Positions 39,001 to 45,000 of a stretch of 63,516 nt of DNA are shown here, in pieces. Within the stretch, counting starts at the first letter, position 1; every line of letters begins with the position of its first letter. Made by a program: the position numbers. This stretch comes from Negaprion brevirostris (Eukaryota). The DNA lies in contig JARDVH010000185.1 of assembly GCA_030324005.1 (NCBI GenBank), positions 4,280,981 through 4,344,496 on the forward strand. Direction: 5' to 3'.

Positions 39001-42000
39001 ACGGCACTGAGTTCATATACTAATTCAAAGCAAAGAAAAATATAACCATGGTTTGGTTGAAATAGCCTTGAGACGTGAATAACGTGGTGGGTAACTATCA
39101 TTGAGATAAGTTGATTTTTTATTGGTTTTGATAATACAGGACTGATTTGTTTTGGTGCACATCAGACATTTGTGAAAATTCAAAATTCATAAAATTTTGT
39201 GCATAAAAACCACAAAACTGATTTATTAAGAGTGAATTCCACCATCCCTGCAGCAGCTTCTTTTGTGGGGTATGAAAGGTACAAGAAAATTCACATCTTT
39301 TCTCCAGAAAACGGTCAGTTTCAAGTTCTACTTTGAGGATGCAGTGCGAGAGATTTTTTTTTTTAAGTTCATCAAGTGTTACCAGTTGAACAAGGCTGTG
39401 AAGATTCTTAGGGAGTTAGAATTTCTCATTAGGCTTAACAGATTTTGGTTGGTTAAGAATTGTCAACCACGGGATTTAAGAACAAAATGAACATTGATGG
39501 AAGTGGTCAGGTTGAGCCACAAACATTACAACAGGTTTAGAAAACAATCCATTGAGTACAAATAGTCTATCAGTTCAATTTTCAACAATCTTAATTAAAC
39601 ACCAACGTGAGGGAACTGGATAAAATATGACAAGGGGGAAAATACCTCACTCAAAAGATGATCCGGGTTTTACAATGATTACAAAACGAACCAATAGGCA
39701 CCACAAACATGGGGGGGGGAAATGTGTTGGTAAATATTAACTATTTTTCGCTTTATTTTACAAATTGCTATTAAGAGAAAGAACAGACCCACCTGTATAT
39801 TGAAATAGTAAAGTCCTGCAGAGCACTGGGGAGGAGGAAGGGGGAGAAAGAAAAACAGCTATTACTTTTCAATGATTTGTTACCTTAAAGCCATTTGAAA
39901 TACTAAAATTGAGAATTAAGAAAAAAAGGAACTTTAAGCACCCATGCACATAAATCAAATATAAAAATCAGGCACAATGACACTTTTCCACCTAATTAAA
40001 ACAAAACGGAGGAAAAAAACACAACAAATAAATTTGAGTGCAGTTATTCATCAACATTTATCAATTAATTAGACAATGTTTCTACTCAAAATAAATTGAA
40101 CTAGTACGAAAAATATCACAATAGTGAAACATGAAGGAATCGGACAAGGGCGACTTCTAGGAATAAAATCGGGGGAGAAAAACTTACAAATTAAAAAATA
40201 ACGACTAAGTAAACCGACGAGCTAATCTCGTGCATTAACAGAGTAGAGCTAAAGGTCTGCTGAACCTGGTAGATCTGCTGCTTTAGACAAAATGGCGGTT
40301 CAGCAAATGTCTGCCTTATCATAAGTCACTTTATGCATCCAATAGTCCAGCCAAAAATATAGCCTCAAAAACACCTCAGAAAAACTCAAGTGACTACTGG
40401 TCAGGCGACTACAATTATTCAGCCGTTTTTAAATCGTTAGTTAAGAATAAAGACCAAAAGAAAAGGCTTTGAAACAAGATTATTTTTGGAAAAAATTCGA
40501 AAATACTAAATCGGGGGGAAAAAAAAGCAAAAAATATTCCCCCAAAAACGAAAAAATATTTATGCAGGTACTGTAGGCAAAATTACTGGTAAAATAACAA
40601 TTGGACAGTACAAATCTAAAGGTTATAATGCAGTATTTAAGGGATTGCCACGCCCTAACAAAATTCTGCAATTTTTAGCTCATTTGCAACATTAAAAACG
40701 ACTGTTTTAAAAAGGCGATACCTATTTATCAGTTCTAAATTTTGCTTTTCCTTGTATTGATCAGAAATCTGTTCCTACTTGATTTTTGCCTTACACCTCA
40801 AGCCGCAATTTGTCTTATTAAAAGAAAACTTTACATTTTAGGCTTATATTGATGTTCTGCTTCTCACCGAATTTACAAATGCATCCAAAACGCATTTTAA
40901 TATTAATTTAATTGAACGAAAATTAATTGTTATTTTCCGAAAATCAAGGGTTTTTTTCCAGAAGTCTCCTCCAATAAAATACTGCAATACAAAGTAATTT
41001 TCTTCCTTTTAGCACTATGTTTTTTCATTAATTTGCTACAATAAACCCCCTATGAATTATTCTGAATATTTTCGGAAAAAAAATCTTGAAACGTCAGCAG
41101 CAATGGAGCTAGTGAGTTGCATCAGGCTGCACAGTAAGGGTGCAAAAACAGTGAGGTTCCGAAAAAGCCTGAAAAATTATCAATTCGTGAAAAATTACAC
41201 TCCTTTTTGCACAGATAATCTACTTTATAGATCAAAAATCATAAACATGGCAAAAAGAAATTATTTTCGAACCCGAAAATAGCCTTTTTCCCCCTTCTTA
41301 AACCCTGATGCGAATGGCCCTGAGCATGCACTGTGACCACTACCAAAAGACTCTGATATAAAAAACAACTCACTCTGCCTGTAACCTCGTCGAGCTCCAA
41401 CATTTCAAAGCCAAAAATCATTGAAAAGCATTTTCCCCACCTCGGAAAAGTCTACCTGGCAAATTCGAACCTTTTTTTGTTCCTGAATCGCCCCCCAGAA
41501 ACCTTCCTACCTAAAATCCTTAGCACAACCTCTGAGCAATTGTAAAGGGTGAAAAAAAAGACTGTTCAGTTCCCCCTGCGCAACTTTCTACACTCAAATT
41601 GCACATTTTCTAGGGCAGGGAAAAATCTGAAAAAATTTCAGTGTAAGCCTCTATGCTTAAGGAAAACATGTGCAAAGTCTCAAGTCTGGGGGATTTGTTG
41701 TTGAAGAATAAAAAATTTGTATTTGCATGTATTAAAATTGCGCCAAAGCTAACGTCTCTGACTGCCTTGTAACCTTGCCAAGTGGCTGCTATCCTGGTTA
41801 GTACAGTAAACTGCCGACCTAGATTTTCTTCCTCTGTAGCTCCTTGGCACAGGGTCAATTTTTAAACATCTGCTTTCTTTTTTCTCACCATATTTAGAAA
41901 ATATGTGCAATCAAATGCTTACTTCAATGTTTTTGTTTTAATTTTTCTGATTTCCCCCCTCTAAAATGGTGTTAAAATAAGCAGTGGCACCATGCTGCTT

Positions 42001-45000
42001 GGTGAATCTGCTGCTGCCAATGCAAAACTACATTTTTTTTAAGCAAGGGGAGACAGAGAAGGCTGAATGCACACCCTACCCCTTTTCACCCAAAGATTGA
42101 AAAACAAAATAACACAACACAAAACTACCAGAAGGTGCTGAACTCAAAGGAATTTATGCAAGGTCAAAGAGAATCATTGCTCTTGATGTACAATCACAAA
42201 ATTGTGTCTCAGGGTGAAATGCAATGGAACTTTTCATTTTTAAAGCTCTCCAACATAAAAACTGTGCATTTTTCTTTCACAAACCCAACTGAACATTTTC
42301 AGAAATACCAGTTAGAACAAATCCAAGCAACTGTATGCTCAACCAAATGCAAACAATCCAAATACTAACAAATTTGTGGGACAGACAGACAGCAATGGTT
42401 GCCACACGCCTACTTCTCATCAAATGAAACTGATACACAGAACATTCTATTAGAAATCTGAATATGCTGCCACTAAAGCAATTGACAATCACATTTCCAA
42501 ATATGAGTCGCAAGCCAGTTTTCTTGAAACACGTTGCATCGTTTGTTGATAGGATGCCATCTTCTCTCAATAATTAAATTTAAAAATAATAAGGTTTCCA
42601 CGGTCAAAACCTCACCTAACTCAGAAGGCTTTCTTCTTAAAAAGCAATTTATATTTTTCAACTCTATTTTCAACTAATTGTTGCACAAAATACACTCACT
42701 GGCCAAATTGAAAGGGGAGAGACAGCAAGTGACTTGTTCTGAAACTTCAGCCAGTATCACTTTGTCACTAGTCATTTGGATTTGCATAAGGCAACTAACC
42801 TCCAATTTTCAATTTCTCCCAGAAAGTGAAGTGTGTGTAACCTCTACATCCTTGAATCCCTTTCCAAAGTGGCACAACCAATAGAAGGGTCTTCTGAGAC
42901 AATGAGGAGGACTACACTGTACACTTAACTGAAATCTCTCCACACCCATTAGTTGTTTTAAAACTTGCTCAGTTAAATTTATTCTGCATCTGCTCAACAA
43001 AGTTCAGCCTTGTCCTTCACTGTCACCTTCTCAAATTTTTCATAACTAACCTTGAAGTTATGAATGACATTGGGTAAATACTCAATGCCATCCAAAATAT
43101 TCCAGGTAACAGCAGACCTTACAATTTTAGGGCAACAAGAATTTACTCTTGCCAGAAGATGCAAAATGAAAAGACTGATAAAATGATGATGAGAGTCAAG
43201 GCTGTTTTATAGCTACGCCACTCACTTGAAGAACCTACTGAGGAATGACTGACTTGTAACTGGTTTTCAAAGTGCAGTCATTGAATTTCTAAACAACTAC
43301 TTGGAGAACTCTCTCTTCAGGAACCACATCGTGAGGGTGTTGCTGACCATGAACCTCCAATGCTAATATTACTCTGGATCACTTTTGTTGATGATGCGTT
43401 CATCCAGTTTGCAAAACTCTTTAAAAAGATTGTTCTTTTGTCTACCTTGATCACTTCAACCATTGATCTTTTCCAATCAGTATCTGTCTTTCTAAATCAC
43501 AGTGTATTACATGCCCAAGGGATTCCAACTGTTCCTTCTTGATTTTGGTCAGCAGAGTTTCTGATTTTACTAGTCAAGGCATCATTATTTGCCTCAAAAA
43601 CCTCAACACTTCGCTACATTATTTCACTGATCGCCCGACACTCGCCTCCATAAGTCAAAATTAGTGTGATGTAGCATGCCAGGATTCTCAGCTTTGTTTT
43701 ATGGCTATTGAATTCATTTCTTGGTCACATTTTCCAATCAGTGTTAACATAATTCCTTGGTAATAAAATTTTTTCTACCTGATTGAACATTTCATTCTTC
43801 ACTGTGACCTCAATTCTGGCATGGTTTACTTTTTTGACACTACTAGACATTACTTTTCTTACAATGAAAATGGTTGAAAAAATAATATAATATTATTAAT
43901 TTATATAATAATATTGTTACAAGAGAAGCATTCCCTACCTTCAGCCACTTCAGGTAACCAGCTGCTCTTCATTTCTCCAAAAGGTACCTTACTTTAAAAT
44001 CCTGATTTTATATAACCAGTACAGGAAAAAATAATGTTTGTCACTAAAGCCAGCACCATTCGAGAGTTGACAGTACTCAACCACAACGAACAAGTTATTC
44101 AGCCAAGAGACACCCCACTTTGTATTTGGATGCCAGTTTCATTATCAATTTTAGTAATGTACTTTCCCTTAAACTAGTGGCATCATATTGGGTAAAGCAC
44201 AGGTGACTGTTCCTTAGAAATGTTTTGGACTGTCCTTGGAAAATTTGCACAAAGGAAAGATAATCTGGTGGAAGGTACCAAATCAAATGTTCTATGTTCA
44301 GTAAGTCAATAAGACTATTCCTTGTACCAACAGATTTTAAAGCAAGTGTCTTAATTGACATTTTTTGTGTGAAAACACTGTGTAATATTCTACTGGGAAA
44401 GTTTGAAGATTTAGCCCATTGTTTCAGAAGAAAAGCTGCATTACAAAGCAAAACTTTCTGCTGAGTTGGCCTAGAAATCACAACACGGCAAAAGCAAACG
44501 GTGGATTTTTTTTTTTAAGGAATGTGAACACTTTGAAGTGAGAATGGAAGGTATCTAGGTTTCTGAAGGAATTTTTTGTAAACCAATAATCTACATATTA
44601 TTTACCAGTCACGTAGCATGTTAAATACAGGATTGGTTTTAAAAATGCAACTAAACGAAGAACCGAGCGACCTGTTGAAGTTGTCGAAGCTAATCTAGGT
44701 GCTATTAGTGGTGGTCTGCCATTGCCAGCATTACTGCGCTACCAACACAGCAAGCAGAATGTCATATCAGTCACATTCTGTAAAGGAGTCATTCTCATCA
44801 ACACAATATGGAAGAAACAAACCACCCATTGTGTCTAAATAACAGCTGATAGGGAGCAAATTTAGCACAACTATCTGATCTTGGGACTCAGGTGAGCAAC
44901 AGGAGAGAGGGGAGGGGTTGCAGTTGATGTGTATAAAGTTGTGAAATAAAATTCCATTCCAACACCAGGTCAAATCATACAGCACATCACTGTTCCTTGG

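What the first reader, a model, noticed from the sequence alone, without database searches (positions are those of the whole stretch)
39600..42200. Multi-kb non-repetitive domain of ~10-bp-phased A/T tracts (PATC-like / curved DNA) in a shark sequence
Seen: 3-8 nt A or T runs recur about once per helical turn with no tandem repeat unit. Examples are tract centres near 40492, 40501, 40509, 40522, 40531; 41164-41287 in ~10-11-bp steps; and 41623, 41634, 41645, 41664, 41675, 41695, 41704, 41714, 41723, 41735, 41746. G/C runs and CpG tend to sit between the tracts. The signal seems to fade gradually (weaker back to ~38.3 kb) rather than stop at a junction. Known: phased An/Tn tracts bend DNA and rotationally position nucleosomes; periodic An/Tn clusters (PATCs) mark germline-expressed introns and protect them from silencing in Caenorhabditis. 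I am not aware of them as a described feature of shark genes. Inference: a structural chromatin element (nucleosome-positioning or anti-silencing/anti-methylation) that evolved in place.
Basis: partly seen in the sequence, partly recalled or inferred. Interest (0 to 1): 0.8.

Follow-up and report, generated by a model that had tools for sequence, protein, structure and literature searches.

The report
A-tract-dense, CpG-retaining AT-rich island
This stretch really is packed with short runs of A and T, but they are not spaced in step with the DNA helix; its core looks like an AT-rich island that has escaped DNA methylation, an ordinary kind of vertebrate regulatory region.

Summary
The tract density is real. 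Window 39600-42200 holds 100 A/T runs of 4 or more, against 37.9 expected from the rest of the window, and ranks 1 of 260 windows. It is not a repeat within the window.

The 10-bp phasing, the core of the claim, is not supported.
- The best-fit period is 10.2-10.3 bp, but a null that keeps tract density reaches the observed value in 60 of 500 trials.
- Local 130-bp phase coherence equals the null: mean R is 1.906 in both, and the observed maximum is reached in 312 of 500 trials.
- In a simulated PATC-like control with 40% or more of tracts phased, the score fell as low as observed in at most 4% of runs.
- G/C runs of 5 or more are enriched as strongly as A/T runs, 12 against 2.7 expected.

A new feature appeared. 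A core at about 40101-41500 keeps CpG at observed/expected (o/e) 0.85, against 0.27 outside (P = 8e-9). All ten highest CpG o/e values among 516 windows fall in this domain.

My best reading, at 0.45, is an AT-rich non-methylated island of the cold-blooded-vertebrate type, probably regulatory. The main rival, at 0.25, is a young unclassified insertion. No eukaryotic genome or repeat library was available to separate the two.

The parts
38801..42400 (.). Whole A/T-tract-rich domain: 11-20 runs of 4 or more per 400 bp, against a window median of 14.2 per kb (about 5.7 per 400 bp)
   Evidence: The edges are gradual, not a junction.
39600..42200 (.).
   Evidence: rank 1 of 260; periodicity tests
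40101..41500 (.). CpG-retaining core: 35 CpGs, o/e 0.85 against 0.27 outside, GC about 0.30-0.41 in 400-bp windows. Putative non-methylated island.
   Evidence: two-rate Poisson scan of the gap-free block 36600-45800. Two-log-likelihood support is 39601-40141 for the left edge and 41280-41640 for the right; P = 7.6e-9. Searches agree.
40001..40400 (+). Strand-asymmetric block: 11 A runs of 4 or more and 0 T runs; A fraction 0.41, T fraction 0.23
41150..41300 (.). The only locally phased patch: 12 tracts, best period 10.3 bp. Not significant once the number of patches is counted.
   Evidence: 13 of 300 jitter trials reach it; top local window starts at 41160, R = 5.31; null maxima reach this in 312 of 500
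40917..40959 (.). Minor 21-bp x 2.0 tandem duplication, the only tandem row scoring above 50 inside the region

Best explanation
The region is an AT-rich non-methylated island (NMI) of the kind described in cold-blooded vertebrates, set inside a wider homopolymer-rich domain. It is probably a regulatory region: a promoter or a distal element.

**Shown**
- About 1.4 kb (40101-41500) has kept CpG near the unbiased expectation, with no TpG/CpA excess. The surrounding DNA shows the usual vertebrate CpG decay.
- The same place has the window's highest density of homopolymer runs of all four bases.

**Inferred**
- The core is unmethylated in the germline, so its CpGs are not lost by deamination of 5-methylcytosine.
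- The stiff poly(dA:dT) and poly(dG:dC) runs disfavour nucleosome wrapping and keep the DNA accessible. Accessibility, together with factor binding to unmethylated CpG, keeps de novo methylation out. The role of homopolymer runs in excluding nucleosomes is recalled general knowledge, not tested here.
- The flanks at 38.8-40.0 and 41.6-42.4 kb share the homopolymer-rich composition but are methylated shores that have lost their CpGs.

**More speculative**
- The island could be the upstream promoter of the minus-strand transcript that carries the mir-15-like hairpin (10740-10820) and the mir-16 hairpin (4573-4651).
For: **CpG retention**
- CpG o/e is 0.85 inside 40101-41500 and 0.27 outside; Poisson P = 7.6e-9.
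- All 10 highest CpG o/e values among 516 1600-bp windows start within 39301-40201. The maximum is 0.79 and the median 0.26.
- TG+CA o/e is 0.91-1.09 in the core, 1.29 window-wide, and 1.38-1.60 in the immediate flanks.

**Composition**
- GC in the core (0.30-0.41 in 400-bp windows) is not raised above the surroundings. Long et al. report the same for zebrafish NMIs: high CpG o/e with GC almost indistinguishable from surrounding DNA (PMC3583005, passages).
- A/T runs of 5 or more: 46 against 10.6 expected. G/C runs of 5 or more: 12 against 2.7 expected.
- In Table 2 of PMC5161304 (passage read), homopolymer 6-mers rank among the top 20 k-mers that classify experimentally defined NMIs. Chicken: GGGGGG, CCCCCC, AAAAAA, TTTTTT at ranks 1-4. 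Lizard: AAAAAA 2, CCCCCC 5, GGGGGG 10, TTTTTT 11. Frog: AAAAAA 15, TTTTTT 16. Mouse: AAAAAA 8.

**Methylation background**
- A cartilaginous fish genome, the elephant shark, is globally hypermethylated, transposable elements (TEs) included. TSSs of expressed genes are the conspicuous exception (PMC5437953, passages).

**In-place origin**
- Tract richness runs continuously across the CpG boundary.
- No terminal repeats, no protein remnants and no second copy were found.
Against: - Methylation was not measured. CpG retention equally fits a very young insertion.
- No transcription start, exon or known RNA family was found in 38-43 kb.
- No TF-motif test was run.
- The region fails classical CpG-island criteria on GC.
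- Cumulative GC skew peaks at about 40 kb, so the skew turns from G>C to C>G. By my recollection this is the opposite of what divergent transcription from a promoter would give.
- The strong A-over-T asymmetry at 40001-40400 also recalls the sense strand of a retroelement.
- The link to the miRNA hairpins rests only on strand and a distance of about 30 kb.
- I did not verify that the organism is a shark.
Confidence: 0.45

Rival explanations
1. A young insertion of mobile or otherwise foreign DNA: an unclassified non-autonomous element whose AT-rich, homopolymer-rich, CpG-undepleted composition is that of its source. It would have been in the methylated host genome too briefly to lose its CpGs.
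For: - CpG o/e 0.85 with TG+CA o/e about 1.0 is what undecayed DNA looks like.
- Strong A-over-T strand asymmetry in 40001-40400, 11 A runs to 0 T runs.
- No coding capacity, which fits a non-autonomous element.
- The left CpG edge is fairly sharp: o/e 0.32, 0.51, 0.78 over about 400 bp.
Against: - No terminal inverted or direct repeats beyond short low-complexity matches of 70-80%.
- No second copy in 63 kb, whereas the window's SINE-like repeats have 3 copies per family.
- No Pfam domain at or above the cut-off in 10 of the 21 ORFs of 50 aa or more; best E = 0.053.
- The homopolymer-rich composition continues about 1.2 kb to the left and 0.8 kb to the right of the CpG core. An insertion does not explain this.
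- No similarity to plasmids or phages.
- No eukaryotic genome or repeat library could be searched, so copy number is unknown.
Confidence: 0.25
2. Functionless AT-rich low-complexity DNA. Slippage-prone homopolymer runs accumulated neutrally in an intron or intergenic stretch, possibly with scaffold/matrix-attachment (S/MAR-like) properties. The CpG retention would be a local by-product with no regulatory role.
For: - Runs of all four bases and purine/pyrimidine runs are enriched (R/Y runs of 12 or more: 11 against 3.3). This looks like a general run-forming regime rather than a designed A/T pattern.
- Most of the tract excess follows from the region's own dinucleotide content: shuffles give 78.5 runs of 4 or more against 100 observed.
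- No motif, RNA or ORF was found.
Against: Neutral DNA in a globally methylated genome should lose its CpGs as the flanks did. An excess of 35 CpGs where about 11 are expected at the outside rate (P = 7.6e-9) needs either protection from methylation or youth.
Confidence: 0.2
3. One reading: a PATC-like domain in which A/T tracts are phased at about 10-10.5 bp, producing curved DNA that positions nucleosomes or blocks silencing.
For: - The best-fit period is consistently 10.2-10.3 bp.
- Window 40301-42900 ranks 1 of 43 on the pair statistic.
- Tract centres against the spacer-order shuffle are reached by 10 of 300.
- AAA/TTT against the dinucleotide shuffle is reached by 6 of 200.
- Patch 41150-41300 is reached by 13 of 300.
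- A 2026 preprint argues that PATC-like mechanics recur in Metazoa, including at human CTCF sites and in L1 ORF2 (10.64898/2026.08.08.743475, abstract and section 13).
Against: - Density-preserving nulls reach the observed signal in 60 of 500, 61 of 500 and 167 of 400 trials.
- Local coherence equals the null.
- No harmonic at 20-21 bp.
- PSD band/off ratio is 1.11, against 0.97 +- 0.17 in 30 other windows, with a maximum of 1.49 elsewhere.
- The simulated control gives 16-19 with all tracts phased, against 1.27 observed. With 40% or more phased, the score fell as low as observed in at most 4% of runs.
- A and T runs are unbalanced, and G/C runs are equally enriched.
Confidence: 0.04
4. A decayed satellite or minisatellite.
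For: - Short similar words recur at spacings of 163-177, 342-352 and 506 bp in 40003-40550.
- One 21-bp x 2 tandem.
Against: - No lag up to 900 bp stands out; the highest z is 4.1, at lag 858.
- Gapped blastn with word size 7 finds only the self-hit.
- Tandem Repeats Finder at minimum score 30 finds nothing longer.
Confidence: 0.02

Closest known systems
Non-methylated islands of cold-blooded vertebrates (Long et al. 2013, PMC3583005; Huska and Vingron 2016, PMC5161304)
   Same: - High CpG o/e with GC no higher than the surroundings.
- Kilobase size.
- Enrichment of homopolymer 6-mers, which rank among the top NMI-classifying k-mers in chicken, lizard, frog and mouse.
- Missed by classical CpG-island rules.
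   Different: - Methylation state, TSS overlap and conservation are untested here.
- No cartilaginous-fish NMI k-mer profile was available for comparison.
- The A/T-run density, 2.6-4.3 times background, may be higher than is typical.
Periodic An/Tn clusters (PATCs) of Caenorhabditis elegans (Fire 2006; Frokjaer-Jensen 2016, PMC4947018)
   Same: - Dense clusters of 3-8 A or T.
- Non-coding, kilobase-scale.
- G/C and CpG lie between the clusters.
- No obvious tandem unit to the eye.
   Different: - PATCs are defined by many clusters in 10-bp register over an extended stretch (PMC4947018, figure legend). Here the register is at chance level.
- The host genome is CpG-methylated, unlike C. elegans by my recollection.
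- The A and T runs are unbalanced.
Nucleosome-excluding poly(dA:dT) tracts at promoters (yeast paradigm; recalled, not looked up)
   Same: Unphased, rigid homopolymer runs concentrated in a region inferred to be accessible. This is the mechanism I propose.
   Different: Those tracts are usually one or a few longer runs within a nucleosome-depleted region of 100-200 bp. Here about 100 short runs spread over 2.6 kb. Occupancy was not measured.
Scaffold/matrix attachment regions (S/MARs; recalled)
   Same: AT-rich, A-tract-rich, kilobase-scale non-coding DNA, often intronic.
   Different: S/MARs are defined by binding assays. AT content here is only 62-70%, and CpG retention is not, to my knowledge, an S/MAR property. 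Motif rules were not tested.

Membership tests
PATC (periodic An/Tn clusters) | Dense clusters of 3-5 or more consecutive A or T | tested here: met
   179 runs of 3 or more and 100 runs of 4 or more in 2601 bp; rank 1 of 260 windows
PATC (periodic An/Tn clusters) | Clusters in about 10-bp register over an extended stretch of hundreds of bp to 1 kb | tested here: not met
   Jitter null reaches the observed value in 60 of 500 and 61 of 500 trials. Local coherence equals the null. The positive control with 40% or more phased fell as low as observed in at most 4% of runs. The original algorithm could not be run: Fire 2006 is not held and supplements are closed.
PATC (periodic An/Tn clusters) | Both An and Tn clusters contribute (the 'balanced' version of the score) | tested here: inconclusive
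   A to T runs of 4 or more are 66 to 34 overall and 11 to 0 in 40001-40400. The balanced algorithm itself was not seen.
PATC (periodic An/Tn clusters) | Lies in introns of germline-expressed genes within repressive chromatin | not testable with these tools
   No annotation, expression or chromatin data
PATC (periodic An/Tn clusters) | Derived from Helitron minisatellites (2026 preprint) | tested here: not met
   No tandem or cryptic repeat. Helitron ends were not searched for systematically.
Non-methylated island / CpG island | CpG o/e clearly above the flanks and near expectation | tested here: met
   0.85 against 0.27, P = 7.6e-9; the top 10 of 516 windows all lie here
Non-methylated island / CpG island | Classical CpG-island GC of 50% or more | tested here: not met
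   GC 0.30-0.41 in 400-bp windows. This is not required of NMIs in zebrafish, frog or lizard (PMC3583005).
Non-methylated island / CpG island | Experimentally unmethylated DNA | not testable with these tools
   Needs bisulfite, EM-seq or Bio-CAP data
Non-methylated island / CpG island | Overlaps a TSS or other regulatory element | not testable with these tools
   No RNA or chromatin data. No RNA family or ORF was found in the region.
Non-methylated island / CpG island | Homopolymer k-mers enriched (top SVM features in several vertebrates) | tested here: met
   AAAAAA occurs 18 times against 2.6 expected in 40000-41800. G/C runs of 5 or more: 12 against 2.7. Table 2 of PMC5161304.
Transposable element | Terminal repeats or target-site duplication, protein remnants, further copies | tested here: inconclusive
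   None found within the window. Genome-wide copy number and repeat libraries were not available.
Satellite / minisatellite | Head-to-tail repeat unit | tested here: not met

The most novel reading that the evidence does not exclude
In cartilaginous fishes some methylation-free regulatory islands may not be specified by GC or CpG richness at all. Instead, kilobase fields of short homopolymer runs would mechanically exclude nucleosomes. A weakly phased subset of runs, at most about 30-40% of tracts with period 10.2-10.3 bp, would add local curvature. That would be a vertebrate functional analogue of nematode PATCs, protecting DNA from methylation rather than from small-RNA or heterochromatin silencing. 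It could sit upstream of a mir-15/16 host transcript.
Probability: 0.07. Interest if true: 0.6.

Novelty: new member of a known kind. Interest (0 to 1): 0.25.

Why it matters
**If the phasing had held**, it would have been the first PATC-like domain in a vertebrate gene. It does not hold, so that claim should not be carried forward.

**What remains is modest but useful.**
- It is a clear example, findable from sequence alone, of an AT-rich CpG-retaining island that classical CpG-island finders would miss. This bears on promoter and enhancer annotation in shark genomes.
- It shows that "one A-tract per helical turn" seen by eye can be a pure density effect.

A single methylome track would settle whether the island is a regulatory NMI or a young insertion.

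Tried and rejected
**Protein and RNA searches**
- Six-frame Pfam search of 38601-43400 failed because the frames contain stop codons. I replaced it with stop-free ORFs: 10 of the 21 ORFs of 50 aa or more. None reached the cut-off.
- Ten further ORFs elsewhere in the window, some of which I took by eye for LINE fragments, gave no Pfam family at E <= 0.01. 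That label stays unconfirmed.
- Rfam at gathering and at E <= 5 found nothing in 38-43 kb. No tRNA was found.
- An SMC-type Walker A motif, recalled, was searched in six frames to test for an SMC4 host gene. No match.

**Repeat and contaminant searches**
- Decayed-satellite idea, prompted by word spacings of about 170 bp: rejected.
- Terminal inverted repeats: only short low-complexity pairs.
- Plasmid or phage origin: no match.

**Literature**
- The original PATC algorithm was not available: Fire 2006 is not held, and the supplements of PMC4947018 that describe the modified version are closed. I used my own statistics with a simulated positive control.
- Search for shark or elasmobranch together with A-tracts, PATCs, curved DNA or 10-bp periodicity: among the 15 of 3,533 papers listed, none combines the two topics. 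A poly-dA-dT / unmethylated / vertebrate search gave one irrelevant paper.

**Not done**
- N stretches were left as they are.
- I do not take the window for human.
The prokaryotic genome-contig scan was not spent, as it does not bear on the question.
- No eukaryotic genome, repeat library or orthologous sequence could be consulted. Genome-wide copy number, conservation and the taxon ('shark') therefore stay unchecked.

Full report
**What was checked**

I read window 39600-42200. It lies in a gap-free block, 36589-45842, of a 63,516-bp window that holds 14 N runs. I left those runs untouched.

The window behaves like bulk vertebrate DNA. CpG o/e is 0.27 overall and TpG/CpA o/e is 1.29. It carries interspersed repeats in 2-3 diverged copies. 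I could not verify that it is a shark, and I do not take it for human.

**The tract density is real**

- The region holds 179 A/T runs of 3 or more, 100 of 4 or more and 46 of 5 or more.
- The rest of the window, scaled to the same length, gives 121.8, 37.9 and 10.6.
- A 2601-bp window starting at 39601 ranks first of 260 for runs of 4 or more.
- AA/TT density is 0.284, against roughly 0.15-0.23 outside the 37-45 kb neighbourhood.
- Much of the excess follows from the region's own dinucleotide content. Its shuffles give 78.5 +- 5.0 runs of 4 or more and 35.0 +- 4.1 of 5 or more.
- Enrichment extends from about 38801 to 42400 with gradual edges.

It is not a repeat within the window:
- Tandem Repeats Finder gives only a 21-bp x 2 and a 10-bp x 1.9 row inside the region.
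- No long-lag self-match stands out; the maximum z is 4.1 among 900 lags.
- Gapped blastn with word size 7 against the whole window returns only the self-hit.
- The repeat finder places no family in the region.

**The helical phasing is not supported**

I used four kinds of control.

1. *Dinucleotide shuffles, coherent spectrum over 2.6 kb.* The AA/TT band maximum at 9.8-11.2 bp is reached by 20 of 200 shuffles, AAA/TTT by 6 of 200 and WW by 97 of 200. The largest AA/TT peak over periods 5-20 bp lies at 9.6 bp and is reached by 33 of 200.
2. *Shuffling the order of tracts and spacers, averaged 200-bp (Welch) spectra.* AA/TT is reached by 99 of 300, AAA/TTT by 184 of 300 and tract centres by 10 of 300. 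The autocorrelation shows a broad hump at lags 10-16 and another at 30-32, but nothing at 20-21.
3. *Jittering each tract by +-7 bp.* This keeps the density and destroys the phase. The pair-distance statistic peaks at 10.2-10.3 bp but is reached by 60 of 500 trials (runs >=3) and 61 of 500 (runs >=4). With tract starts it is reached by 167 of 400.
4. *The rest of the window.* Window 40301-42900 ranks 1 of 43 on this statistic, 2.62 against 1.86 for the next. This is the expected outcome for a region picked by eye for that property.

Other measures agree:
- The power-spectrum measure used in the 2026 PATC preprint (starts of runs of 4 or more; section 23) gives a band/off-band ratio of 1.11. 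Thirty other windows give 0.97 +- 0.17, with a maximum of 1.49 at 52001.
- Local coherence in 130-bp windows is exactly at the null. Mean R is 1.906 against 1.906, and the maximum is 5.31 against a null-maximum mean of 5.72, reached by 312 of 500.

A simulated positive control with the same number of tracts sets the scale. It gives 16-19 when all tracts are phased. With 40% or more phased, the score fell as low as observed in at most 4% of runs. So at most about a third of the tracts could be phase-locked.

However, steps in the three cited patches range from 4.5 to 27.5 bp. 'Once per helical turn' is therefore a density effect: the mean spacing of runs of 3 or more is 14.5 bp, and it is shorter in the densest patches.

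Patch 41150-41300 is the one locally phased stretch, reached by 13 of 300 trials before correction.

**Two further points against a PATC-like design**

- A and T runs are unbalanced: 66 to 34 overall, and 11 to 0 in 40001-40400.
- G/C runs of 5 or more are enriched as much as A/T runs, 12 against 2.7 expected. Purine/pyrimidine runs of 12 or more number 11 against 3.3.

The domain is therefore homopolymer-rich in general, not an A/T lattice.

**What else is there**

The core of the domain has kept its CpGs.
- In 1-kb windows, 40001-41000 has CpG o/e 0.91 and TpG/CpA o/e 0.99 at GC 0.325.
- In 400-bp windows, o/e is 0.78-0.91 from 40001 to 41200. It falls to 0.07-0.00 by 41801-42400.
- A two-rate scan of the gap-free block gives 40101-41500: 35 CpGs, o/e 0.85 inside and 0.27 outside. 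The log-likelihood gain is 13.3 and P = 7.6e-9. Edge support is 39601-40141 on the left and 41280-41640 on the right.
- All ten highest CpG o/e values among 516 1600-bp windows lie in this domain.
- The immediate flanks show above-average TpG/CpA, 1.38-1.60. That is the pattern expected of DNA that once held CpGs and lost them.

Nothing in the region looks coding or like a known RNA:
- No Pfam family reached the cut-off in 10 of the 21 ORFs of 50 aa or more.
- No Rfam match up to E = 5, and no tRNA.
- No plasmid or phage similarity.

**Interpretation**

In a globally methylated genome, CpG retention needs either protection from methylation or youth. The elephant shark genome is pervasively methylated, TEs included, with hypomethylated TSSs as the exception (PMC5437953, passages).

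Two published observations match this island.
- In zebrafish, NMI CpG o/e is high while GC is almost indistinguishable from the surroundings. Lizard and frog NMIs also have low GC (PMC3583005, passages).
- Homopolymer 6-mers of A, T, G and C rank among the top 20 features that classify experimentally defined NMIs in chicken, lizard, frog and mouse (PMC5161304, Table 2). 'Relatively AT-rich' longer features identify NMIs in cold-blooded species (same paper, abstract passage).

I therefore read the core as an AT-rich non-methylated island inside a homopolymer-rich domain. The runs would act by stiffness and nucleosome exclusion, which is recalled general knowledge and not tested here, rather than by phased curvature. 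The continuity of the run-rich composition across the CpG boundary favours in-place evolution. Confidence is 0.45.

**Rivals**

- *Young unclassified insertion (0.25).* It would explain the CpG retention and the A-over-T asymmetry equally well. Against it, I found no terminal repeats, protein remnants or second copy. It also does not explain the run-rich but CpG-poor flanks. I had no eukaryotic genome or repeat library, so copy number is unknown.
- *Functionless low-complexity or S/MAR-like DNA (0.2).* It does not explain the CpG excess.
- *PATC-like phasing (0.04) and a decayed satellite (0.02).* Both are close to excluded.

**Context**

- Two mir-15/16-family hairpins lie on the minus strand. 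One is at 4573-4651: mir-16, 47.8 bits against a gathering score of 36.5.
- The other is at 10740-10820: mir-15, 52.6 bits, and mir-497, 55.9 bits, both below their gathering scores.
- A minus-strand primary transcript would start at higher coordinates. The island, about 30 kb upstream, is a candidate promoter on position alone.
- No SMC-type Walker A exon was found.
- The GC skew turns from G>C to C>G at about 40 kb. By my recollection this does not fit divergent transcription. I leave it unexplained.

**Comparison with what is known, and novelty**

PATCs are defined by many An/Tn clusters in 10-bp register over an extended stretch (PMC4947018, figure legend). That defining feature was tested here and not met, so the region is not a PATC.

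The 2026 preprint (abstract and sections 13, 17 and 23 read) already argues for PATC-like mechanics at human CTCF sites and in L1 ORF2. Even the general idea is therefore not new to vertebrates.

As an NMI, this would be a new member of a known kind. My search for shark or elasmobranch together with PATC, A-tract or curvature terms listed no paper combining them among the 15 of 3,533 shown.

**Limits**

- The original PATC algorithm could not be run. Fire 2006 is not held, and the closed supplements of PMC4947018 describe the modified version.
- No methylation, expression, chromatin or orthologous data were available.

**Verdict**

- Interest is 0.25.

Noticed in passing
window 4573-4651 (-) and 10740-10820 (-): Two mir-15/16-family hairpins on the minus strand, about 6 kb apart. 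The first matches mir-16 at 47.8 bits, above the gathering score of 36.5. The second matches mir-15 (52.6 bits) and mir-497 (55.9 bits), both just below their gathering scores. The host gene was not identified; no SMC-type Walker A exon is in the window.
   Followed up: partly
window ~39000-42000 (cumulative GC skew maximum): GC skew on the plus strand is mostly positive from about 21 to 40 kb and mostly negative from 40 to 57 kb. The turn coincides with the island. AT skew changes sign elsewhere, at about 48-49 kb. Unexplained. By my recollection, the sign is opposite to that expected at a divergent promoter or a replication origin.
   Followed up: partly
window 40289-40298 (+): A 10-base word inside the CpG core resembles the YY1 core site often seen just downstream of vertebrate TSSs. 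The motif is recalled from memory and no statistical test was run. The short ORF starting in it stops after 10 codons.
   Followed up: no
window 38223-38595: A second small CpG-dense patch: 10 CpGs in 372 bp, with o/e about 0.6 in the 400-bp window 38201-38600. It sits at the left end of the tract-rich neighbourhood.
   Followed up: no
window 6575-6729, 50143-50474, 52596-52706, 54216-54433, 3746-3960, 34278-34349, 34949-35021: Interspersed repeat families in 2-3 diverged copies (61-89% identity). One has a tRNA-like head, so they are probably SINEs. ARAGORN calls no tRNA.
   Followed up: no
window 55166-55334: A C-rich minisatellite with start-to-start spacings of 36 and 16 bp, 73-83% identity to the reference copy. 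It lies in the most GC-skewed part of the window, with skew about -0.4.
   Followed up: no
window 23001-25000: The most GC-rich segment of the window (GC 0.50-0.51) has CpG o/e of only 0.32-0.40. A GC-based island finder would point here rather than at the AT-rich core, which has actually kept its CpGs.
   Followed up: no
window 15608-15937 (+), 51087-51464 (-), 59590-60003 (-), 47765-48385 (-): ORF fragments that looked to me like LINE endonuclease or reverse-transcriptase pieces. Two of them abut N runs. Pfam gave no family at E <= 0.01 for the four pieces tested, so the label is unconfirmed.
   Followed up: partly
window 3296-3758 and other N runs: The 'family D1' from the repeat finder (161 copies of 181 nt at 8-bp spacing) is an artefact of the N run, not a repeat. 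The 20 bases on either side of the 100-N run at 4421-4520 are near-duplicates of each other.
   Followed up: no
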